Origin: Escherichia coli
Lineage (GTDB): Bacteria > Pseudomonadota > Gammaproteobacteria > Enterobacterales > Enterobacteriaceae
Direction: 5' to 3' (one strand)
Assembly (NCBI RefSeq): GCF_003018235.1
Contig: NZ_CP027437.1
Length of the DNA: 64,000 nucleotides
The notes under the pieces are model-generated. The model was not told the DNA's origin and searched no databases. It worked only from the letters and a program-made list of their open reading frames with translations. Of this stretch, positions 402 to 35,714 are shown in pieces. How positions within the stretch are numbered: the first letter of the stretch is position 1; the number at the start of each line of letters is the position of its first letter. The position numbers and the translations under genes were made by a program.

Positions 402-864
402 CCACGGATAAAGAGAACTAAATTTCGTCAGAATTAACAGGAAATAACTGGAACGAAAAATACACCGCTTACGCGGCGGGGTTTCTGCAACCTTAAAACA
501 GGGTAAGAGAAATGGCAGAGATGATGAACAATAAACTCTTCATAACCAGTCTCTTTAAGTTGACTGGCCGGGAGTAACGACCAGTGGCAATACAAAAAAA
601 CCGCTTGCCAGCGTTTGTCTGGTCGGGTTACATTTCCCGTGCACCTCATAAAACGGGTGCCGGGATTCTCAACCCGCAGAAGAACAGAGCGCATAACCGC
701 GCCAGCGGTTTTTTTATGCGTGCCGTATCGTCACACCTTTTTCGCACACGAATTATGGCGGGGCGTACGGGGCCGACTTCGGTCGGGCCGGATCCTCTGT
801 TCTCCGGTGTTGAGAACCCCGTACGTCTCGCCACCCCGAGATTCTCAACTCTGGATGGTGAGTT

Positions 865-1125
865 ATGTCTATCACTGAACAGAGGTTACCCCTTATGGCA
901 AACCGTAAACAACAGCGCGCCCGCACTGAGCGTCGTCACATCCAGACCGAAATCAACCGCAGACTGTACCGGGCTATCACTGTCGCCAGAGTCATGTACT
1001 TCAATATGCTGTGTGATCAGGGATGCCAGATTGCACCTGATTACATTGCCTCCACGTTCAGTTACCTGGCAGACGATCTGCGGGATATGCAACGCCTGGT
1101 TAACGATCAGGCGCATAACCTGTAA
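865..1125 (+). CDS. hypothetical small basic protein upstream of replication gene
   Basis: ATG with GGTGAG RBS; Arg/Lys-rich N-terminus; 86 aa. Confidence 0.4.
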   Translation: MSITEQRLPLMANRKQQRARTERRHIQTEINRRLYRAITVARVMYFNMLCDQGCQIAPDYIASTFSYLADDLRDMQRLVNDQAHNL

Positions 1126-1203
1126 CGCACTTTTTCCTGAAATCATGAAACGGCACTCCGCTATCTGGCGGGGTGTCTGGCTGCCCGTTATCCGGGAGGA
1201 CAT

Positions 1204-3126
1204 ATGACCGTGTATTCAGCGGGAGGTCCGCGCATGCCTGAGCCGGAAGAAGAACAGGCATTCACTGAAGAGGTGAACAGCGCCTTTTCCGGGCTGCCTC
1301 GTTTTGTGTCTGTAAAGCTGGGGCGCAGGATCAGCAGCGCATGGCAGACAAAGGGTTTTGCCGGTGCACGGGAAAAATTTGCGCTGATGGTTCAGAAGGA
1401 TTTGCCGTTCATTACCGGGGTGAATAAACGTTATGCCATTAATCCGGATGAATTACCGGGGTGGCTGTTTGGTGGGCTGGCATCTGATCAGGCATACGGT
1501 GCGGTTCATTCCATGACCTGGCGATTTAATGCCATGGTGGATGGTGACGACGGGGATGCGCATTTACTGGCTCAGGATCTGTCCGTGTTTCTTATTGCTG
1601 AAATGCAGCACCTGAGTGTTCTTCTTGCGGATGAAGATGCGGATGCGGCGGCAGATGCCATTTATGCCATGGTTGCCGGGCTTGTTGAGCATTTCCGGAT
1701 GGAGCCACCGGACTGGAAGCGTTTTATTGGCAGAAAGCTGACACTGGAGCAACTGACTGTTGCCATCAGCCGGATGCTGAGTGTTCGCTGGTGGCAGGGA
1801 AAACTCAGGGCATTCTCCCGTCGCTGGCGTGAACATCTGCTTATAGCTATGGGTGTCGTTCGTCGGCAGTCTTCACCGCACTGCAGTTATGAATGGGTGC
1901 AGAGGTGGCTGGCGGGGCGTAAGCACGGTCGAAGGCTGATGGCGGAAACGGACGTTGAGGATGAAGAAACAGGAGAAAGATTTTCACTTCTCGATTTGGT
2001 TGACAGCAGCATTTCAGATGCGGAGAAACGCCGCGCAGAGCTGATGACCAGGGTTAAGGGGCTGGAAGATTTAGCCCGTTTTGAAGGTGTGGCGCAGGAG
2101 CAGGGGTATATCGGGCTTTTTTTCACGATGACCGCGCCATCAAAATATCATGCCTGGCTGGAGACAGGATATCGCAATCGTCGTTATAACGGCGCAAGCC
2201 CGAAAGACACACAAAATTATTTCTCCGGACTCTGGCGTCAGATCAGTGCAACGCTGAGGCGCAGGGGGATCGGGATTTTTGGATTAAGAAGTGCCGAACC
2301 GCATCATGACGGAACGCCGCACTGGCATGGTGTTCTCTATGTGCATCAGGAGCATGCTGCCGCCTTACAGGACATTCTTGAGTATTACGCCAACCGCGAT
2401 GATGACGCGGGAAAAACGCCCATCCGCAAAGCAGGAAGAAAATCCCACCTGGAAATAAAACCGGTTCTTGATGATCTGGGGAGTGCCTCTGCCTATATCG
2501 CCAAGCATATTGGAATGAATCTTGACGGTTGTGCGCCAGGCGGAATGAATCATGAAACGGGCCATACACTGGTGGTCACTGCCCGCCACGCCTCGGCGTG
2601 GGCGTCATTATGGGGGATCAAGCAGTTTCAGTTTATAGGCAGCACACCGGTAAGTGTATGGCGTGAGCTGCGTCGCTTTAACAATCAGGCTCATGCTGAC
2701 CGGATAAGCCCGGCGCTGGGTGAGTTACACCGTGCAGCCAGTGAGGGTGACTGGAAAACCTATACCAGGCTGCAGGGTGGACCGTTTGTGGCACGAAGAG
2801 ATCTGGTCCTTCGCACATGGTATCAGCGTTCGGAGGAGCCGGATGAGTGTGGGCTACACACCAGTGCGATCAAAGGTGTTTATATGCCGGGGCGTGATAC
2901 GCCACCGGTAGTGACGCGTTCACGTAACTGGAGGATCACCCGGAACGTTACAACAGGCGCTCTCAATGTTAACCGGGGGTCTGCTTTAACGCCCTGGACT
3001 TGTGTCAATAACTGCATTTCGGGCAGAAAACGACCAGATGGTCATCCTCCGGATCCAGGTATAAGGATCCCTGTTCAACTGGAACTGAACTTCGGGGAAG
3101 AGAATAAAGGGAAAAGTGAGCAGTAA
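1204..3126 (+). CDS. phage replication initiation endonuclease, HUH rolling-circle type (P2/186 gpA-like)
   Basis: 640-aa ORF with GGGAGGA RBS; HUH motif set FFTMTAP, PHWHGVLYV and YIAKHIG in canonical order. Confidence 0.7.
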   Translation: MTVYSAGGPRMPEPEEEQAFTEEVNSAFSGLPRFVSVKLGRRISSAWQTKGFAGAREKFALMVQKDLPFITGVNKRYAINPDELPGWLFGGLASDQAYGAVHSMTWRFNAMVDGDDGDAHLLAQDLSVFLIAEMQHLSVLLADEDADAAADAIYAMVAGLVEHFRMEPPDWKRFIGRKLTLEQLTVAISRMLSVRWWQGKLRAFSRRWREHLLIAMGVVRRQSSPHCSYEWVQRWLAGRKHGRRLMAETDVEDEETGERFSLLDLVDSSISDAEKRRAELMTRVKGLEDLARFEGVAQEQGYIGLFFTMTAPSKYHAWLETGYRNRRYNGASPKDTQNYFSGLWRQISATLRRRGIGIFGLRSAEPHHDGTPHWHGVLYVHQEHAAALQDILEYYANRDDDAGKTPIRKAGRKSHLEIKPVLDDLGSASAYIAKHIGMNLDGCAPGGMNHETGHTLVVTARHASAWASLWGIKQFQFIGSTPVSVWRELRRFNNQAHADRISPALGELHRAASEGDWKTYTRLQGGPFVARRDLVLRTWYQRSEEPDECGLHTSAIKGVYMPGRDTPPVVTRSRNWRITRNVTTGALNVNRGSALTPWTCVNNCISGRKRPDGHPPDPGIRIPVQLELNFGEENKGKSEQ

Positions 3127-3253
3127 ATTTTCCGGTTAAGTCAGCGGAAGAAACTGGACTTGTCCGGAGAATAAAAATACCGGTTTTACCTGGGCATGGT
3201 TTTATATACAGTGTCGCTGTATGGCGACAGTTAAGTGAAAAATGAGGTGGAAC

Positions 3254-3523
3254 ATGAGAGGACTGGAGCTTGAACGAATGACGCCGGAAAAAATGCATGC
3301 AATTGGTATGGAGTTCATCAGGAGATCTGAGGCCATGACGCAGGCGGGGATGACAAAAGACGCTGTCAGAAAAAATCTGCTTCCGGCGATACAGCGCCTG
3401 AACCGTGCAAAACATGAGCTTCAGATGGTGGTTGATCAGATGATCGATAAGGCAGCAGAGCTGGAAAAGTATAGCAGTGCGCTTGAAAAAATCATTCAGG
3501 ATATTGTGGGCACTGAGCAGTAA
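3254..3523 (+). CDS. hypothetical helical prophage protein (89 aa)
   Basis: ATG preceded by GAGGTGG RBS; first gene of a tightly spaced three-gene cassette. Confidence 0.4.
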   Translation: MRGLELERMTPEKMHAIGMEFIRRSEAMTQAGMTKDAVRKNLLPAIQRLNRAKHELQMVVDQMIDKAAELEKYSSALEKIIQDIVGTEQ

Positions 3524-3533
3524 GAGGTGGGGT

Positions 3534-4613
3534 ATGCAGGCGATCCTGACGGTATTCCCGCAGCGTAATGCCGGGATAACACTGATGAAAACAGGTAATC
3601 TGACAGCGCGGTTCAGGGACGGGCAGAGAATAATGATAAGGGATGTTCCGTCTGTGATGGCTGGGATGCCATCAGGAGAAATTCCGTCATCAGGACAGAG
3701 GCTGGCGGAAGAGGAAGGACTGACGGCTTTCTTTGCTGACGGAAGGGTAATAAAGCGTGCTGGTGGCAGTGATGCCATGGCGCGTTGGGTGAGCAGGATT
3801 GCAGGCTGCCAGTGTGAGAATGGTGATCACGTGGAGAACATGACAACAGCGCGGACAATGCAGGGAGAGGCGCTTCGGTTATGCCATGCCTGTGATAATC
3901 ATCATTATATGAAAGGATATCGGGCGCTGGCAGATGTGGCAGCCAGAAATCGTGCAGAATGGCTGATGGATTATATCAGGATGAGTCTGGGGCTGGGGGA
4001 AGATCATCAGGTGACCATTCCTGAGTTGTTTTGCTGGGCAGTGCTGAATGATGTGGCAGATGCTGTTCCGGTTATGATCGTAAGGCGTATCAGACAATTG
4101 CCGGAAGAGGAAAAGCTGAGCGGCACGATGAAAGAAGCAGATATTAATCCCTGGCAGACATCAGCAGGCACAGTGGTGAAGAAACTGGCAGATAATGCGA
4201 AGAGCGTTAATGTGTGCAATGTGCGGGTCAGACATGCAGTACGCCAGGAAGAACACAAAGAAATGGAAAAACCGGTGCTGAAACTTGTTGCAGACAGTGA
4301 TCCGGCTGCGGGCTATATGAGGAAGCCCAGAATGCAGCGGCTGTCTCTGCCGGGTTATACCTCGTGGGTGAAGCGTCAGCGATGCTGTGGATGCGGGAAA
4401 CCTGCAGATGATCCGCATCACATCACCGGGCACGGTTTTGGTGGTGCAGGGATAAAAGCCAGTGATTTGTTTGTGATCCCGCTGTGTCGGCAATGTCATC
4501 AGGAATTACACAATGACAGCAAGGCATGGGAGGAGAAAAACGGCAGTCAGTTGCTGTGGGTGATAAGGACGCTGGACAGGGCAGCGGGCATTGGCGCTTT
4601 AGTTGGGGGGTAA
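3534..4613 (+). CDS. Cys/His-rich prophage protein, resembles YdfU/DUF968 family (from memory)
   Basis: ATG with AGAGGTGGGG RBS; C-terminal CCGCGKPADDPHHITGHGFGG...IPLCRQCHQELHN zinc-binding-like cluster and internal CQCENGDH...CHACDNHHY cluster; size about 359 aa. Confidence 0.4.
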   Translation: MQAILTVFPQRNAGITLMKTGNLTARFRDGQRIMIRDVPSVMAGMPSGEIPSSGQRLAEEEGLTAFFADGRVIKRAGGSDAMARWVSRIAGCQCENGDHVENMTTARTMQGEALRLCHACDNHHYMKGYRALADVAARNRAEWLMDYIRMSLGLGEDHQVTIPELFCWAVLNDVADAVPVMIVRRIRQLPEEEKLSGTMKEADINPWQTSAGTVVKKLADNAKSVNVCNVRVRHAVRQEEHKEMEKPVLKLVADSDPAAGYMRKPRMQRLSLPGYTSWVKRQRCCGCGKPADDPHHITGHGFGGAGIKASDLFVIPLCRQCHQELHNDSKAWEEKNGSQLLWVIRTLDRAAGIGALVGG

Positions 4614-28373: not shown

Positions 28374-28618
28374 GAATAAAAAAATACCCACAGTGTTGGC
28401 CAGGCTGTGGGGAATACGATGAAAAACCATGTGAAGGAGTTATTTTTATGTACGGTGAAACTGTAACGCTGTGCAATTATCAGCGCCACAGGTATTTTGC
28501 AGAAATGTGAAGAAATTCAGAATTTTTATTCAGTCAGTCAACAGACAGGCACCCCACGGGGTGCCTGTTGTTTTTGGGTATAAACAGATTCAGGCATCAG
28601 GCTGGACAGGGGGACAGA

Positions 28619-31600
28619 GTGGGTAAAGGTGGTGGTAAGGCGCACACGCCGGTTGAGGCGAAAGATAACCTGAAATCCACGCAGATGATGAGCGTGATTG
28701 ACGCGATTGGCGAAGGCCCGGTGGAAGGTCCGGTTAACGGTCTGCAGAGTATTCTGGTGAACAAAACCCCGCTGACGGACACGGACGGCAATCCCGTGAT
28801 ACACGGTGTGACAGCCGTCTGGCGTGCCGGGGAGCAGGAGCAGACACCGCCGGAAGGCTTTGAGTCCTCCGGGGCGGAAACCGCGCTGGGTGTGGAAGTC
28901 ACGAAGGCAAAGCCGGTGACGCGCACCATCACATCAGCGAACATTGACCGTCTGCGGGTGACCTTCGGGGTGCAGTCACTGGTGGAGACCACCTCACAGG
29001 GTGACCGTAATCCTTCTTCAGTCCGCCTGCTGATTCAGGTGCAGCGTAACGGCAACTGGGTGACGGAGAAGGATATCACCATTAACGGCAAGACCACCTC
29101 GCAGTACCTGGCGTCGGTGATAATCGGTAACCTGCCTCCCCGCCCCTTTAACATCCGGATGGTCAGGGAAACGGCGGACAGCACCACGGACCAGCTGCAG
29201 AACAGGACGCTGTGGTCGTCATACACCGAAATCATCGATGTGAAACAGGGTTACCCGAACACGGCCATTGTGGGGCTGCAGGTGGATGCGGAGCAGTTCG
29301 GCGGCCAGCAGATGACGGTGAACTACCATATCCGCGGTCGCATCATCCAGGTGCCGTCAAACTATGACCCGGAAAAACGCACATACAGCGGTATCTGGGA
29401 CGGGAGTCTCAAACCGGCATACAGCAACAACCCGGCCTGGTGCCTGTGGGACATGCTGACGCACCCGCGCTACGGGATGGGAAAACGCCTGGGGGCAGCG
29501 GATGTGGACAAGTGGGCACTGTATGCCATCGGACAGTACTGTGACCAGCGTGTTCCGGACGGCTTCGGAGGGACAGAGCCGCGGATGACGTTTAATGCGT
29601 ACCTGTCACAGCAGCGTAAGGCGTGGGACGTTCTCAGTGATTTCTGCTCGGCAATGCGCTGTATGCCGGTATGGAACGGCCAGACGCTGACGTTCGTTCA
29701 GGACCGCCCGTCGGATGTGGTGTGGCCGTACACCAACAGCGATGTGGTGGCGGATGATAACGGCGTGGGGTTCCGCTACAGCTTCAGCGCCCTGAAGGAC
29801 CGGCACACGGCGGTGGAGGTGAACTGGACCGACCCGCAGAACGGCTGGCAGACCTCCACAGAGCTGGTTGAGGACCCGGAAGCGATACTGCGCTACGGGC
29901 GCAATCTGCTGAAGATGGATGCGTTCGGCTGTACCAGCCGCGGTCAGGCCCACCGTGCCGGACTGTGGGTGATAAAGACCGAACTGCTGGAAACACAGAC
30001 GGTGGATTTCACACTCGGGTCACAGGGGCTGCGCCACACGCCGGGTGACATCATTGAAATCTGTGATAACGACTATGCCGGGACCATGACCGGCGGGCGC
30101 ATTCTGTCCGTTGACGCTGGCAGCCGGACCCTGACGCTGGACCGTGAGGTGACGCTTCCGGAAACCGGCACATCCACGGTGAACCTGATTAACGGCAGCG
30201 GTAAGCCGGTAAGTGTGGACATCACCGCACAACCGGCCCCTGACCGGATACAGGTCAGCGCCCTGCCAGATGGCGTGGAGACATACGGTGTGTGGGGACT
30301 GAAAATACCCGGTCTTCGCCGTCGCCTGTTCCGCTGTGTGTCCATCCGGGAAAACACGGACGGCACCTTTGCCATCACGGCGGTGCAGCATGTGCCGGAG
30401 AAGGAAGCCATTGTGGATAACGGGGCCACCTTTGAGCCGCTGTCCGGTTCGCTGAACAGTGTCACACCTCCTGCCGTGCAGCACCTCACGGTGGCGGTGA
30501 GTGCGTCTGACGGCCAGTATCTGGCGCAGGCGAAATGGGACACGCCACGGGTGGTGAAGGGCGTGCGCTTCAGTCTTCGCCTGACCAGCGGAAGCGGAGA
30601 AGACAGCCGTCTGGTGACCACTGCCATCACCGCAGACACGGAGCACCGTTTCAGTGGCCTGCCGCTCGGGGAATACACCCTGACCGTGAGAGCGATAAAC
30701 AGTTACGGCCAGCAGGGGGAGCCTGCCGGTACCACGTTCCGGATTGACGCCCCGGCAGCGCCTGTAACCATTGAACTGATACCGGGATATTTTCAGATAA
30801 CGGCGGTCCCGAAACTGGCCATTTATGACCCGACGGTGCAGTTTGAGTTCTGGCTCTCGGAAAAGCAGATTGCGGATGTTCGTCAGGTTGAAACCACCGC
30901 CCGTTATCTTGGTACGGCGCTGTACTGGAGTACCGCCAGTAATATCAGGCCGGGGTATGATTATTATTTTTATATCCGCAGCGTCAACCTGGTGGGCAAA
31001 TCGGCATTCGTGGAGGCCGTCGGCCGGGCCAGCGATGATGCGGAAGGTTACCTGGATTTTTACAAAGGGCTGATTAATAAAACACATCTCGGTAAAGAGC
31101 TGCTGGAAAACGCTGAACTGACGGAGGATAACGCCAGTAAGCTGGAGCAGTTCTCGAAAGAGTGGAAGGACGCGAACGATAAATGGAATGCCATGTGGGG
31201 CGTCAGAATTGAGCAGACCGAAGACGGTAAGCATTATGTTGCCGGGCTTGGTCTCAGCATGGAGGATACGGAAGAAGGCAAGCTGAGCCAGTTTCTGGTT
31301 GCCGCCAGCCGTATTGCGTTTATTGACCCGGCAAACGGGAATGAAACGCCGATGTTTGTGGCGCAGGACGGGCAGATATTCATGAACGACGTGTTCCTGA
31401 AACGCCTGACGGCTCCCACCATTACCAGCGGCGGAAATCCACCGGTATTTTCCCTGACACCGGACGGAAAGCTGACTGCCAGAAATGCGGATATCAGCGG
31501 CAGTATCACCGCCAGTTCGGGTACGCTCAACAATGTGACGATAAACCAGGACTGTGTGATTAAGGGCAATTTATCCGCGGCACAGATAACCGGAGATATT

Positions 31601-31915
31601 GCGAAGACGTATGTGCTTAACGGGAACAGTGTGTATATCCCTGCTCAGGTATTTACCATGAATCTGGTGATGCTGGGCGGTGCCGGACACCTGTACTTTA
31701 ACGGTAACGAGCAGACACCGGTTTCCTCTGCGATCCTTTCGAGGATGCAGACAGACAGTGTCTGGAGCGGCGGAAGTCCGGGGCATGGTGGCGGCAGTTA
31801 CAGACCTGTTTACAGCACAATCTGGATCAAGGTGTTCAGGCTTAATGCGGGGACACCCGTGACGGTGTCGGTTTCAGACAATGCCGTGACGGTTATCTGG
31901 ATGTCGAAGGCGTAA
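28619..31915 (+). CDS. central tail fibre / host specificity protein J with divergent C-terminal receptor-binding region
   Basis: GTG start giving [11 protein letters not shown]; near-colinear to lambda J for about 980 aa; last about 110 aa unrelated to lambda J. Confidence 0.9.
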
Positions 31916-32001
31916 ATTTGTTAACTCGTTGAAATATTTATAACCCCGGTACGGGCACCAGAAATGGTGCCTTTTTTATTGCAGAAAAGCGAGAGGTCAT
32001 T

Positions 32002-32601
32002 ATGCGTAAATTATGTGCAGTTATTTTGTCTGCAGCTGTCTGGCTGGTTGCTGCTGTTGTGCCAGCGGGTGCCGCAGAGTATCAGTCCACACTGAGTGCC
32101 GGATATCTTCATGCCCGTTCCGGGATGTCCGGCAGTGATGATTCAGCCGGATTCAATGTGAAATACCGTTATGAATTAACGGACACACTGGGGATGGTGA
32201 CGTCATTCAGCTATGCAGGAGACAGGAATTGCCAGCTGACCCGTTACAGCGATACCCGCTGGCATGAGGATTCCGTGCGTAACCGCTGGTTCAGCGTGAT
32301 GGCGGGGCCGTCTGTGCGCGTGAATGAATGGTTCAGCGCGTATGCGATGGCGGGTGTTGCTTACAGCCGTGTGTCGACCTTCTCCGGGGATTATCTTCGC
32401 GTGACTGACAACAAGGGAAAAACGCACGATGTGCTGACCGGAAGTGATGACGGTCGCCACAGCAACACGTCACCGGCGTGGGGGGCTGGCGTGCAGTTTA
32501 ACCCGACCGAATCCGTGGCCATTGATATTGCTTATGAAGGCTCCGGCAGTGGTGACTGGCGCACTGACGGTTTCATTGTGGGTGTCGGTTATAAATTCTG
32601 A
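32002..32601 (+). CDS. lom: Lom-like outer membrane protein (Ail/Lom/PagC family)
   Basis: Signal peptide and beta-barrel pattern; position after J as in lambda. Confidence 0.8.
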   Translation: MRKLCAVILSAAVWLVAAVVPAGAAEYQSTLSAGYLHARSGMSGSDDSAGFNVKYRYELTDTLGMVTSFSYAGDRNCQLTRYSDTRWHEDSVRNRWFSVMAGPSVRVNEWFSAYAMAGVAYSRVSTFSGDYLRVTDNKGKTHDVLTGSDDGRHSNTSPAWGAGVQFNPTESVAIDIAYEGSGSGDWRTDGFIVGVGYKF

Positions 32602-32665
32602 TTAGCCAGGTGACACAGTGTTATGACAGCCCGCCGGTTCAGGCGGGCTTTTTTGTGGGGGGAAT

Positions 32666-33859
32666 ATGCCAGTACAGATTTCAGGTGTGCTGAAGGATGG
32701 TACAGGAAAACCGGTACCGGAGTGCACCATAGAGCTGAAAGCCGTGAGAACCAGTGAGACGGTGGTGGTCACCACGGTGGCGGAGTGTCAGCCGGGGGAA
32801 ACAGGCAGTTACAGCATGCAGGTTGAGCCGGGGCGTTATCGTGTGACCCTGTGCGTGGAAGGTCGCCAGCCAGCATATGCCGGAGAGATTGATGTCATGG
32901 CAGACGACAAACCGGGTACCCTGAATGCCTTTCTGCTCCGTGAAACGGATGCTGCGTATTACCCTGATGCACTGAAGAAACTGGAAGCGGCGGCGGATGA
33001 GGCTGTGCGCAGGGCGCGGGAAGCTGCTGAGAAAGCGGAAACTGCCGTGGGGCCACAGGGGCCAAAGGGAGATAAAGGCGAGAAGGGGGAGCAGGGGCCA
33101 AAGGGTGATAAGGGAGACACCGGTGCACAGGGGCCGAAGGGAGAAACCGGCGCTAAGGGTGACAAAGGTGATACAGGCCCCGCAGGTCCGAAAGGTGAGC
33201 GGGGCGACCCTGGCGGCCCACAGGGGCCAAAAGGGGATACGGGAGCCGCAGGTCCGGCAGGCCCACAGGGGCCGAAAGGGGATACCGGAGCCACAGGCCC
33301 GGCAGGCCCACAGGGACCAAAAGGAGATACCGGAGCCGCAGGTCCGGCAGGCCCACAGGGACCGAAAGGAGATACAGGAGCCACCGGTCCGGCAGGCCCA
33401 CAGGGACCGAAAGGAGATACGGGGGCCGCAGGCCCGGCAGGCCCACCGGGACCGAAAGGAGATACCGGAGCCACTGGTCCGGCAGGCCCACTGGGACCGA
33501 AAGGGGATACGGGAGCCACCGGTCCGGCAGGTCCGCAGGGGCCGAAAGGCGATACCGGAGCCACCGGTCCGGCAGGTCCGCAGGGTCCGGCGGGAAGTTC
33601 TGACAGCGGGTTGTTTGGCGTCGGTTCTTTTGTTCTTGCAGCGTATTACCCGACGAGTTACTCGGGGGACATGCCACCGGGCACAACTGTTGCCGGGTCA
33701 TCACTGTCTGCATGCTGCCTTTCGAATGGTACTCCCCTGATTGCGTCCGGTAATGTGGGGGAAACCCGTTTACCGGGGACGTGGCGTGCATGTGGTCCGT
33801 TAATATGGACATCTGCTGCGGGTATCAGACAGGCAGGATTATTTCAGCGCATATCATGA
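32666..33859 (+). CDS. side tail fibre protein (Stf-like) with collagen-like Gly-X-Y repeats
   Basis: N-terminus [17 protein letters not shown] matches lambda Stf N-terminus; about 160 aa of GPKGDTGA-type triplets. Confidence 0.75.
33040..33600 (+). repeat. tandem 45-bp (15-aa [15 protein letters not shown]) collagen-like repeats inside stf
   Basis: Repeated nucleotide unit read directly; generates spurious ORFs on both strands. Confidence 0.7.
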
Positions 33860-33869
33860 GGAGGTCAGG

Positions 33870-34475
33870 GTGGATAAGGGAAAAGAGATTCTTGCAGTAC
33901 GAAATGCCGGTTACAACGAATACGGCGGTATAAACTGTGAGGTGCAGTTTGAAGGCGCGGTGAATGAAAAAGGTGAAGCGTTATGGCTGCCATATACGGC
34001 AACGGAAACGGATAATACTGAACACGGAAAAGCATTATGGTCTGGTCTGACAGCAGGAAAGTACGGAGATGTGACCGCCTTTGCTGCCACGGAAGCTGTT
34101 CTTGAGGCGGCAAAATCGGTGAAAAGGGAGGAGATTAATCTCTGGCGGGACGTGCAGGAAAATATGGAATACGTGATGGAATTCAACGGAAGAAAATGGG
34201 ATTACGGCAAGAAGACATTGTCCAGGATAAGCACGACGCGCCTGATGGCGGAAAAAAACAGTCTTCCGGAAGGATTTGCGTGGACGGATGGTGAAAATAA
34301 TGTGGTGCCGGTGACGGCGGCGGAAGTTATCGCGCTGTCGGATGCGATAGAGAAGGCGATGTTTGCGAAGGGGGTGGAGATTAACACCAGACAGTTGCAG
34401 ATGAAAGCAGAGGTTGAGGCGCTGACAGAGCTGAAGTCCATCAGAAGTTATGTTGTTGGCTGGCCTGCCAGTTGA
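33870..34475 (+). CDS. hypothetical protein in tail-fibre-assembly position, not lambda Tfa-like
   Basis: GAGGAGG RBS then GTG; 201 aa; no similarity to lambda Tfa recalled. Confidence 0.4.
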   Translation: MDKGKEILAVRNAGYNEYGGINCEVQFEGAVNEKGEALWLPYTATETDNTEHGKALWSGLTAGKYGDVTAFAATEAVLEAAKSVKREEINLWRDVQENMEYVMEFNGRKWDYGKKTLSRISTTRLMAEKNSLPEGFAWTDGENNVVPVTAAEVIALSDAIEKAMFAKGVEINTRQLQMKAEVEALTELKSIRSYVVGWPAS

Positions 34476-35135
34476 ATAAAAAAAGCGGGGCCACCCCCGG
34501 GCCCCGACATAACGAAGTATCAGATGTTTATAATTATTAGCTTACTAACTGTGCCATATCAGAATACTGCAGGAAGTGATGTTGTTATCATTTTTGCAAG
34601 CAGGGCGTTTCTGGAGGGAATCGATTGGTGATGGAGTGTGCAATGATGAAGGGAATAAGCCTCTGCAAAACAAAAAAAGACTTTAACAAAATCAAGCTCG
34701 CTTAGTGGCGCATCTGCCCGTATCCGCACCAGTCGTCCGGAAAATGATTCAAACACCGGGCGGCAAAAGTATTACCAGTGTAGCAACCTGGAATGCGGCG
34801 TATGCTTCTCAACTCTGGCAGCTTTCCATAAATTCACATCGAAACACGCTTCCGGCGTTCACTCTTCAGAAGGTATCCCGTGGCATGAACTGCCAGCTTC
34901 ACACTGGTGAAACAATCAGATGACTTTTCCTTTACCTCAAATTAACAGGCAGAATTGCCGGAGTAACAAAAAAACGATAGATTACGCGCGGGTGCCTTTC
35001 GGCTGATGGTCGGAGGGAATACCCGAAGGCCAGATGTGGAAAGGCCCCGGAAAACACTTTTGTTTAACCGAGGCCCTAACCGTCTACCCTAAGCAAGTGA
35101 TAGGTTAGCGCCTCCCCGAAAAAGGAGCAAGCGCT

Positions 35136-35276
35136 ATGTCGCAAAAATCGCTGATCGCCATCACGCTCTGCGTGACAGCAACCCTCATCATCTGGATATT
35201 GCACGGTTCGCTGTGTGAGATACGGATGAGTTTCTGGGGAGCGGAGTTTGCGGCGTTCTTACAGTGTAAGCAGTAA
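35136..35276 (+). CDS. Hok/Gef-family type I toxin (46 aa)
   Basis: AAGGAG RBS; TM helix then SLCEIR...EFAAFLQCK matching Hok signature SLCEIRYRDGHREVAAF (from memory); structured flanking RNA. Confidence 0.6.
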   Translation: MSQKSLIAITLCVTATLIIWILHGSLCEIRMSFWGAEFAAFLQCKQ

Positions 35277-35417: not shown

Positions 35418-35714
35418 ATGAGTGAAATGGTATTTTGTCGCGGCTGCGGCAAGGAAATACATAAAAATGCCATATCTTGCCCCAATTGTGGAGCACCTCA
35501 AAGAACAGCAAGTTCAAAAAGCAGGATTACAGCTGCACTACTGGCTTTCTTTTTTGGTGGTCTCGGTGCACACAAATTTTATTTAGGTAAAGTGGGACAA
35601 GGATTTCTTTATCTTATTTTTTGCTGGACATTCATTCCGGCAATCGTGGCTTTTATTGAGTTTATTATCTATCTATGCACCTCAGATGAAGATTTCGCCC
35701 GCAAATATGGCTGA
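35418..35714 (+). CDS. zinc-ribbon plus TM2-domain membrane protein (98 aa)
   Basis: CRGCG...CPNCG zinc ribbon; TM2-like motif FFFGGLGAHKFYLG and two TM helices. Confidence 0.6.
   Translation: MSEMVFCRGCGKEIHKNAISCPNCGAPQRTASSKSRITAALLAFFFGGLGAHKFYLGKVGQGFLYLIFCWTFIPAIVAFIEFIIYLCTSDEDFARKYG

What the first reader, a model, noticed from the sequence alone, without database searches (positions are those of the whole stretch)
33870..34475. Gene in the tail-fibre-assembly position is unlike lambda Tfa
The 201-aa product after stf has no resemblance to the lambda Tfa sequence I recall, yet has a strong RBS and GTG start right after stf. It may be a distinct fibre chaperone or an unrelated cargo protein.
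Basis: inference. Interest (0 to 1): 0.3.

Follow-up and report, generated by a model that had tools for sequence, protein, structure and literature searches.

The report
DUF4376-type tail fibre chaperone gene
The gene after the prophage's collagen-like side tail fibre is a real gene unrelated to lambda Tfa; it belongs to DUF4376, a second and already described family of tail-fibre assembly chaperones, so it is an ordinary but under-annotated phage gene.

Summary
Window 33870..34475 (+) is a 201-aa ORF with a GTG start, 5 nt after a GGAGG and 10 nt after the stf stop. It shows no detectable similarity to lambda Tfa or Mu U.

It is not an orphan. It hits Pfam DUF4376 (PF14301, 55.7 bits, cut-off 25) and PHROG 1141. 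Its C-terminal domain is homologous (hhalign 96.8%) to Alteromonas phage V22 gp27, which has been shown experimentally to be a tail-fibre chaperone.

Homologues lie directly downstream of fibre genes in lambdoid, P2/Mu-like and rV5-like phages. dN/dS is about 0.12.

The protein has two modules:
- The N-terminal β domain (about residues 1-74) co-varies with an ~85-aa fibre tip that ends ...GLFQRIS.
- The C-terminal helical DUF4376 domain (about residues 75-201) recombines independently.

Natural chimeras join lambda Tfa residues 1-117 to a DUF4376 domain and sit behind lambda-Stf-type fibres. The DUF4376 domain therefore takes the place of Tfa's C-terminal part.

Best reading (about 0.75): a trans-acting chaperone that docks on the Stf tip and helps it trimerise. 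The cargo reading is rejected. Novelty: a new member of a known kind. Interest is low to moderate.

The parts
32666..33859 (+). stf-like side tail fibre gene (397 aa). It has an N-terminal tail-attachment domain, a collagen-like Gly-X-Y shaft and a C-terminal tip.
   Evidence: PF08400 on residues 1-127 (1.4e-41) and Collagen PF01391; PHROG 366 'tail fiber protein'; annotated as 'prophage tail fiber N-terminal domain-containing protein' in NZ_CP076709.
33593..33856 (+). C-terminal tip of Stf (about residues 310-397), ending ...PGTWRAC...AGLFQRIS. This is the proposed docking site of the chaperone.
   Evidence: 50 of 55 unique fibre/chaperone pairs with a query-type N domain have a fibre ending [LIF][FLY]xR[IV..]x, against 0 of 7 pairs with another N domain. 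There is no Pfam domain and no PDB sequence relative. The tip is predicted to be β-rich, with the last strand formed by AGLFQRIS (moderate confidence).
33860..33864 (+). Shine-Dalgarno GGAGG, 5 nt before the GTG start and directly after the stf stop codon.
   Evidence: Read directly from the sequence; the same arrangement is seen in L008.
33870..34475 (+). DUF4376-family tail fibre chaperone gene (201 aa plus stop).
   Evidence: PF14301 7.5e-15; PHROG 1141 4.7e-78 over the full length; 83 close relatives and 825 clusters at 50% identity; dN/dS about 0.12; AF2 model with pLDDT 96.5.
33870..34091 (+). N-terminal variable domain (about residues 1-74), with three β-strands and one helix. It is the proposed fibre-tip-binding module.
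   Evidence: AF2 model: strands 7-15, 21-31 and 37-44, helix 51-61. Co-varies with the fibre tip: r 0.87, partial 0.79 given the C domain. Replaced by other N-terminal parts in most family members.
34092..34472 (+). C-terminal conserved DUF4376 domain (about residues 75-201): a long helix, a β-hairpin, a helix, a small hairpin, a long helix, then ...Y.VGWP. It is the proposed oligomerisation/assembly module.
   Evidence: Pfam match on residues 81-187; AF2 helices 75-97, 114-128 and 150-184; 52% identical to residues 116-239 of the lambda-Tfa-N::DUF4376 chimera; hhalign 96.8% to V22 gp27 over residues 73-196.
34486..34506 (-). GC-rich stem-loop just after the ORF. Its T-run is on the minus strand, so it looks like a terminator for leftward transcription; on the plus strand it is preceded by an A-run.
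   Evidence: Terminator scan. Its function was not tested.

Best explanation
The ORF encodes a trans-acting (intermolecular) tail-fibre assembly chaperone of the DUF4376 family. It serves the collagen-like side tail fibre encoded immediately upstream. It is probably co-transcribed with stf and translated from its own strong RBS. The proposed mechanism has two parts. The variable N-terminal β domain (about residues 1-74) docks on the ~85-residue C-terminal tip of Stf, which ends ...GLFQRIS. The conserved C-terminal helical DUF4376 domain (about residues 75-201) self-associates, probably as a trimer, and brings three Stf C-termini into register, so that the tip folds and the Gly-X-Y shaft zips up from the C-terminal end. 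What is shown here: family membership, synteny, the two-module architecture, co-variation of the N domain with the fibre tip, and natural replacement of the Tfa C-terminal part by DUF4376. What is inferred: binding, trimerisation, the direction of folding, and whether the protein is released (as V22 gp27 is) or stays on the fibre.
For: 1. Pfam DUF4376 scores 55.7 bits against a cut-off of 25, and PHROG 1141 matches over the full length.
2. The C domain is homologous to V22 gp27 (hhalign 96.8%, E 2e-10). gp27 is required for functional gp26 fibre (PMC7289586). A DUF4376 gene is likewise required for the Campylobacter CJIE1 H-fibre (PMC7882524).
3. Homologues lie directly after a fibre gene, with gaps of -41 to +33 nt, in lambdoid prophages (P-EibA ORF-191A), Rac-SA53, the myovirus phiP27, the rV5-like phage Av-05 and about 70 IMG/VR loci. 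phiP27 carries both a fibre/Caudo_TAP pair (L54/L55) and a fibre/DUF4376 pair (L56/L57).
4. Fibre-tip identity tracks N-domain identity: r 0.87, partial 0.79 given the C domain, p 0.0005. In 42 locus pairs the C domains are >80% identical while the N domains are <40% identical and the tips only 19-29% identical. The tip motif is present in 50 of 55 pairs with a query-type N domain and 0 of 7 others.
5. Natural chimeras (L038:3135-3866, L043, L086) are 62% identical to lambda Tfa 1-117 (E 4e-53) and 52% identical to this ORF's residues 76-199 (E 6e-48). They follow fibres ending VKNIAFNYIVRLA. Other chimeras carry different Caudo_TAP N-terminal parts.
6. The AF2 model (pLDDT 96.5) shows an N-terminal β module plus a C-terminal helical module. 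This matches the architecture described for TfaMu and Pam3 gp25: a variable N domain binds the fibre and a conserved helical C domain trimerises (PMC9608196).
7. Purifying selection: dN/dS 0.11-0.13.
Confidence: 0.75

Rival explanations
1. The protein is a structural distal component of the fibre, either a tip adhesin or a permanent cap like T2/S16 gp38 or Mu Tfa. In this reading it stays on the virion and contributes to receptor recognition, rather than acting only as a folding helper that is released.
For: PHROG 1141 and several GenBank records call relatives 'tail fiber protein'. TfaMu and Ur-lambda Tfa remain on virions (PMC9608196). The A5/V22 study proposes transient fibre 'caps' (PMC10579305). 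The N domain is variable between phages.
Against: V22 gp27 did not co-elute with its mature fibre (PMC7289586). N-domain variation tracks the fibre tip rather than varying independently of it, which suggests the N domain contacts the fibre. dN/dS of 0.11-0.13 shows no sign of diversifying selection. The database labels are automatic, not experimental. This rival overlaps the best explanation, because a retained chaperone would still be a chaperone.
Confidence: 0.18
2. The gene is unrelated cargo (a moron), for example a lysogenic-conversion or defence gene, that merely sits at the end of the late operon where lambda-like phages collect such genes.
For: The region downstream of stf/tfa in lambdoid prophages is a known cargo site. 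Here a Hok/Gef-like ORF, a TM2-domain ORF and an ogr/Delta remnant follow. P-EibA carries eib genes just downstream of the homologue.
Against: There is a 10-nt gap with an RBS abutting the stf stop codon, and no convincing promoter or terminator lies between the two genes. The gene is always paired with a fibre gene in unrelated phage types, including inside structural modules. It co-varies with the fibre tip. Chimeras with Tfa N domains exist. There is no PADLOC hit. The predicted protein has a soluble α/β fold.
Confidence: 0.03
3. DUF4376 is simply a highly diverged form of the Caudo_TAP (lambda Tfa) C-terminal domain, so the gene is a very distant Tfa homologue and not a separate family.
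For: It has the same position, the same size and the same two-module logic. Chimeras place DUF4376 exactly where the Tfa C-terminal part sits. Both families end in a ...WP motif. One paper describes Mu U as containing DUF4376 (PMC7882524).
Against: Lambda Tfa and Mu U/U' give no PF14301 hit at E<=10, and this ORF gives no PF02413 hit. The profile-profile probability is 2.3%, although the Tfa alignment had only 11 sequences with little diversity. The DUF4376 domain is about 125 residues with two β-hairpins, whereas the Tfa C-terminal part is about 75 residues.
Confidence: 0.1

Closest known systems
Alteromonas phage V22 gp27 and A5 gp9 (DUF4376 tail fibre chaperones; PMC7289586, PMC10579305)
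   Same: Same Pfam domain at the C-terminus; homology confirmed (hhalign 96.8%). Similar size (195 vs 201 aa). The gene lies immediately downstream of the receptor-binding fibre gene. An N-terminal three-stranded β region is followed by a helical body.
   Different: Only about 19% identity, confined to the C domain. The N domains are unrelated and the partner fibres are different: V22 gp26 is not collagen-like and ends ...KITVNF. The hosts are a myovirus/schitovirus of a marine bacterium, not an E. coli lambdoid prophage. No experiment exists for the E. coli protein.
Lambda Tfa, Mu U (TfaMu) and P2 G: Caudo_TAP family PF02413
   Same: Same genomic position after stf, similar length, and the same logic of a fibre-specific N-terminal part joined to a generic C-terminal part. 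Natural chimeras show that the DUF4376 domain can replace the Tfa C-terminal part behind a lambda-type Stf.
   Different: No detectable sequence or profile similarity. The C-terminal module is longer and contains β-hairpins. It serves a different fibre tip (...GLFQRIS rather than ...NIAFNYIVRLA).
Cyanophage Pam3 gp25 (PDB 7YPX) tail fibre chaperone
   Same: [quoted passage not shown] The AF2 model here has the same two-part layout.
Intramolecular chaperone domains (Peptidase_S74) of T5 pb1 and K1F endosialidase
   Same: Gonzalez-Serrano et al. 2023 propose that DUF4376 chaperones resemble these helical-bundle-plus-hairpin 'tentacle' domains that cap the fibre's C-terminus. The model here also has helices and a protruding hairpin.
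P-EibA ORF-191A, phiP27 L57, Rac-SA53 'tail4' and Av-05 gp077
   Same: Full-length homologues (28-44% identity) in the same position after a fibre ending ...LF.RI..
   Different: They are annotated only as ORF, 'unknown' or 'tail fiber protein', and none has been studied. They pair with fibres that have different shafts.

Membership tests
DUF4376 (PF14301) tail-fibre chaperones (V22 gp27 type) | Pfam PF14301 match above the gathering threshold, located at the C-terminus of a small protein | tested here: met
   55.7 bits against a cut-off of 25, residues 81-187 of 201.
DUF4376 (PF14301) tail-fibre chaperones (V22 gp27 type) | Demonstrable homology to an experimentally validated member | tested here: met
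   Family profile A2 against V22 gp27: hhalign probability 96.8%, E 2e-10, covering query residues 73-196 and gp27 residues 78-189. Pairwise BLASTP is only marginal (E 0.001).
DUF4376 (PF14301) tail-fibre chaperones (V22 gp27 type) | Gene immediately downstream of the fibre / receptor-binding protein gene, on the same strand | tested here: met
   10-nt gap after stf. The same arrangement is seen in the loci that have a scorable upstream ORF and in V22.
DUF4376 (PF14301) tail-fibre chaperones (V22 gp27 type) | Co-expression required for a functional (trimeric, receptor-binding) fibre | not testable with these tools
   Needs a wet-lab co-expression assay. Shown only for V22 gp26/gp27 and the CJIE1 H-fibre (PMC7289586, PMC7882524).
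DUF4376 (PF14301) tail-fibre chaperones (V22 gp27 type) | Forms a complex with the fibre tip (3:3 heterohexamer in published AlphaFold-Multimer models) | tested here: inconclusive
   A single-chain fusion of tip, linker and ORF with a paired alignment gave pLDDT 79 and pTM 0.62, and contacts could not be inspected.
Caudo_TAP (PF02413; lambda Tfa, Mu U, P2 G) | Sequence or profile match to PF02413 | tested here: not met
   No hit at E<=1. BLASTP against lambda Tfa and Mu U finds nothing meaningful. hhalign probability 2.3%.
Caudo_TAP (PF02413; lambda Tfa, Mu U, P2 G) | Position after the fibre gene, with a fibre-specific N-terminal part and a conserved C-terminal part | tested here: met
   Synteny, co-variation and module exchange in chimeras. 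This shows the protein works like a Tfa; it does not show membership.
Intramolecular chaperone domain (Peptidase_S74; T5 pb1, K1F endosialidase) | Covalently attached C-terminal domain of the fibre, released by autoproteolysis | tested here: not met
   It is a separate ORF in a different frame, with its own RBS and start codon.
Intramolecular chaperone domain (Peptidase_S74; T5 pb1, K1F endosialidase) | Fold similarity to 4UW8 / 3GW6 | tested here: inconclusive
T4/T2 gp38-type fibre chaperone or adhesin | Sequence match to gp38 families | tested here: not met
   No such Pfam, PHROG or PDB hit.

The most novel reading that the evidence does not exclude
Tail-fibre chaperones may follow a two-part plug-and-play code. 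A fibre-tip-specific N-terminal adaptor is joined to one of at least two unrelated, interchangeable C-terminal assembly modules: the Caudo_TAP tail or DUF4376. The natural lambda-Tfa-N::DUF4376 chimeras, and the independent recombination of the DUF4376 domain relative to the [fibre tip + N domain] unit, are consistent with this. If so, the ...GLFQRIS tip and its N-domain partner would define a previously unnamed fibre-tip/adaptor pair. That pair would nucleate collagen-like phage fibres from the C-terminus, and cognate chaperones could be predicted or engineered for receptor-binding-protein swapping.
Probability: 0.3. Interest if true: 0.5.

Novelty: new member of a known kind. Interest (0 to 1): 0.25.

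Why it matters
This result has practical value for annotation and phage engineering. RefSeq calls this gene only 'DUF4376 domain-containing protein', and PHROGs calls the family 'tail fiber protein'. The evidence here supports annotating it as a tail-fibre assembly chaperone.

About 3% of complete E. coli genomes (167 of 5426) carry a homologue detectable at the DNA level. Fibre or receptor-binding-protein swaps with these collagen-like Stf proteins are therefore likely to need the cognate downstream gene.

The chimeras with lambda Tfa N domains give a direct, testable handle on which half of a fibre chaperone confers specificity and which half does the assembly work. The finding does not reveal a new kind of system.

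Tried and rejected
- Megablast of the ORF against the phage collection found no match. tblastn was needed to find phage relatives.
- NCBIfam gave no family for the ORF.
- PDB sequence searches with the single protein and with the family profile gave only chance hits.
- The Stf tip has no PDB sequence relative.
- BLASTP and hhalign against lambda Tfa / Mu U showed no relationship. The statement in PMC7882524 that Mu U carries DUF4376 is not supported by Pfam.
- Foldseek against the PDB found nothing significant.
- BFVD returned only other DUF4376 or uncharacterised phage proteins.
- The search for related loci with the deep alignment A2 failed because it had no conserved stretch. A1 worked.
- An AF2 run on a fused Stf-tip/linker/ORF chain was uninformative, because only pLDDT, pTM and secondary structure are returned.
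- PADLOC gave no hit, which argues against a defence-cargo reading.
- The minus-strand ORFs overlapping the gene (33865..34113, 33911..34186, 34202..34441) were judged spurious, given the purifying selection on the plus frame.

Full report
**Observation**

The window carries a lambdoid prophage whose late operon ends at about 35.8 kb, next to raiA-bamD-rluD. The gene order is J (28.6-31.9 kb), lom (32002..32601), then a 397-aa stf-like gene (32666..33859). The stf product has the prophage tail-fibre N-terminal domain PF08400, a long Gly-X-Y collagen-like shaft, and a C-terminal tip of about 85 residues with no Pfam match.

The ORF in question is 33870..34475 (+), 201 aa. The stf stop TGA is at 33857-33859, GGAGG at 33860-33864, and the GTG follows a 5-nt spacer. 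Relatives read ATG GTG GAT at this point; the window reads AGG GTG GAT, so the GTG is the start here. The full-length PHROG alignment agrees with this start.

The gene is identical in E. coli O158:H23 CFIAFB20140388. It is under purifying selection: dN/dS is 0.11-0.13 against relatives about 88% identical in protein.

**Is it unlike lambda Tfa?**

Yes, by every test available.
- BLASTP against lambda Tfa and Mu U gives only short chance segments.
- Lambda Tfa, Mu U and Mu U' hit Pfam Caudo_TAP (PF02413) at 1e-37 to 1e-43. They do not hit DUF4376 even at E<=10.
- The ORF does not hit PF02413 at E<=1.
- A 111-sequence profile of the ORF's family compared with an 11-sequence Tfa/U alignment gives an hhalign probability of 2.3%. 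The caveat is that the Tfa alignment has little diversity.

**What it is**

The ORF hits Pfam DUF4376 (PF14301; 55.7 bits, cut-off 25; residues 81-187) and PHROG 1141 over its full length (4.7e-78). NCBIfam has no model for it. RefSeq calls it 'DUF4376 domain-containing protein'.

The family is large:
- 83 close clusters, mostly from Escherichia, Salmonella, Citrobacter and Cronobacter.
- 825 clusters at 50% identity with E<=1e-3. The conserved part (profile positions about 75-199) always sits at the C-terminus of a small protein, and the N-terminal part varies.
- BFVD fold matches are almost all DUF4376 or unnamed proteins, from sipho-, podo- and myoviruses of many hosts.

Three papers link this domain to fibre assembly:
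- V22 gp27 is needed for functional gp26 fibre and does not co-elute with it (PMC7289586).
- A5 gp9 and V22 gp27 are modelled as trimeric caps on the fibre knob (PMC10579305).
- The Campylobacter CJIE1 H-fibre works only when the downstream DUF4376 gene is co-expressed (PMC7882524).

I fetched V22 gp27 and confirmed homology to the ORF's family. The hhalign probability is 96.8% (E 2e-10) across ORF residues 73-196. The N-terminal parts and the partner fibres are unrelated.

**Context elsewhere**

Full-length homologues sit directly after a fibre gene in several phages:
- P-EibA: ORF-191A after the 'ORF-401-like' fibre.
- Rac-SA53.
- The myovirus phiP27.
- The rV5-like phage Av-05.

phiP27 has two cassettes side by side: fibre L54 with a Tfa (L55), and fibre L56 with the DUF4376 protein L57. 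The two families therefore occupy equivalent slots.

Among 79 IMG/VR loci, every case with a scorable upstream ORF shows the DUF4376 gene -41 to +33 nt from the end of a fibre-like ORF.

**Two modules and what they track**

The AF2 model is very confident (pLDDT 96.5, pTM 0.83).
- The N-terminal unit has three β-strands (7-15, 21-31, 37-44) and a helix (51-61).
- The C-terminal unit has helix 75-97, hairpin 101-112, helix 114-128, a small hairpin 137-147, a long helix 150-184 and a short helix 188-192.

Four independent lines put the domain boundary at about residue 75: the Pfam match, the partial HMM matches, the chimeras described below, and the model.

Fibres paired with a query-type N domain almost all end in the motif ...G(T)W...[GT]LF[QRVM]R[IV]x. 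This holds for 50 of 55 unique pairs. The five exceptions are frameshifted or broken fibres. None of the 7 pairs with another N-terminal part has the motif.

Across 54 intact unique pairs:
- Identity of the last 80 fibre residues correlates with N-domain identity at r = 0.87.
- The partial correlation is 0.79 given the C domain (permutation p = 0.0005).
- The C domain adds little once the N domain is accounted for (partial 0.31).
- In 42 locus pairs the C domains are >80% identical but the N domains are <40% identical, and the tips are then only 19-29% identical.

Recombination thus moves [fibre tip + N domain] as a unit relative to the DUF4376 domain. The caveat is that the tip and the N domain are adjacent on the DNA. 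Linkage alone could therefore produce part of this signal.

**Natural chimeras**

L038:3135-3866 (244 aa), L043:1845-2591 and L086:4656-5381 are hybrid proteins.
- Residues 1-117 are 62% identical to lambda Tfa 1-117 (E 4e-53).
- Residues 116-239 are 52% identical to this ORF's residues 76-199 (E 6e-48).
- The Tfa C-terminal part (118-194) is absent. Pfam sees only Caudo_TAP profile positions 1-50 or 1-63 of 131, plus DUF4376.
- They follow fibres with the lambda Stf / T4 gp37-type tip ending VKNIAFNYIVRLA.

Other chimeras (L071, L073, L075, L085) combine different Caudo_TAP N-terminal parts with DUF4376, behind yet other fibre tips.

This is the strongest computational argument that the DUF4376 domain does the job of the conserved C-terminal part of Tfa proteins. 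It also indicates that fibre specificity lies in the N-terminal part. That is the organisation reported for TfaMu and Pam3 gp25 (PMC9608196; described likewise in PMC7882524).

**Mechanism**

Shown here:
- family membership;
- synteny;
- the two-module architecture;
- the N-domain/tip association;
- module exchange with Tfa.

Inferred:
- the N domain docks on the Stf tip, possibly by β-sheet augmentation, as in the published V22/A5 models;
- the conserved ...GLFQRIS end is predicted to be a β-strand, but only at moderate confidence;
- the C domain self-associates and brings three Stf C-termini into register, so that the tip folds and the collagen-like shaft zips up from the C-terminus.

Whether the protein is released or stays on the fibre as a cap or adhesin cannot be decided computationally.

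**Comparison with solved structures**

No solved structure is a convincing match.
- Foldseek finds nothing at E<=1e-3.
- TfaMu (5YVQ), Pam3 gp25 (7YPX), T5 pb1 (4UW8) and K1F (3GW6) are not in the top lists.

The published resemblance to intramolecular chaperone domains is therefore not reproduced here, although it is not excluded at lower scores.

**Rival readings**

- Retained distal structural protein or adhesin: about 0.18. It overlaps the chaperone reading.
- Unrelated cargo: about 0.03. Against it are the tight coupling to stf, universal pairing with fibre genes, co-variation with the tip, the chimeras and the absence of any PADLOC hit.
- Very diverged Tfa homologue: about 0.1. Profile tests are negative, but the Tfa alignment was shallow.

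**Verdict**

The gene belongs to an already described, experimentally anchored family. It is present in about 3% of complete E. coli genomes at DNA-detectable similarity (167 of 5426; 52 near full length).

It is a new member of a known kind, and overall interest is low to moderate. The Tfa-N::DUF4376 chimeras and the ...GLFQRIS tip/N-domain pairing are the most useful by-products.

Noticed in passing
L038:3135-3866, L043:1845-2591, L086:4656-5381 (also L071:4827-5531 and L085:4794-5381): Natural hybrid proteins join a lambda-Tfa-type or other Caudo_TAP N-terminal part to a DUF4376 C-terminal domain. Each lies behind the fibre type that matches its N-terminal part. Only 2 records in the phage collection hold most of the L038 chimera.
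   Followed up: partly
L026, L031-L034, L038, L043 (IMG/VR prophage contigs): These loci carry two DUF4376 genes within a few kb. In L038 and L043 these are two tandem fibre/chaperone cassettes, one with a ...LF.R.. tip and one with a lambda-Stf-type tip, which suggests dual fibre sets. In L026 and L031-L034 one of the two copies had no scorable upstream ORF.
   Followed up: no
window 32959..33812 (both strands); L011-L018 and L025: The collagen-repeat region of stf is open in several frames on both strands, giving ORFs of 201, 247 and 219 aa that are repeat artefacts. In many IMG/VR relatives the stf frame is shifted near its 3' end, ending ...YFSAYHRGGHGG instead of ...AGLFQRIS, and the stf frames differ in length. 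Sequencing error and real pseudogenisation were not distinguished.
   Followed up: partly
window 28568..31915 (J): J is an uninterrupted ORF in the window. Its likely start is the GTG at about 28619, 245 nt after gpI. RefSeq marks the near-identical copy in NZ_CP076709 as a pseudogene 'missing C-terminus'. The last ~100 residues differ from lambda J, so this looks like an alternative receptor-binding C-terminus rather than a truncation.
   Followed up: partly
window 34486..34506: A 7-bp GC stem-loop lies right after the ORF. Its T-run is on the minus strand and an A-run precedes it on the plus strand, so it looks like a terminator for leftward transcription. No canonical plus-strand terminator follows the stf/chaperone pair, whereas plus-strand terminators follow J (31953-31972) and lom (32628-32649).
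   Followed up: no
window 34722..34910, 35136..35276, 35418..35714: Three small features lie between the chaperone gene and the prophage end. The first is an ogr/Delta-like zinc-finger remnant with no canonical start codon, annotated in RefSeq. The second is a 46-aa Hok/Gef-like ORF. The third is a 98-aa ORF with a TM2 domain and an N-terminal zinc-ribbon-like CxxC...CxxC motif. These are probably cargo or remnants.
   Followed up: partly
L006 (phiP27) 459-4067: phiP27 carries two adjacent fibre/chaperone pairs of different chaperone families: L54 with L55 (annotated tail fiber assembly protein, aligned with the Tfa/U set in A3) and L56 with L57 (DUF4376). This is a natural side-by-side comparison system.
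   Followed up: no
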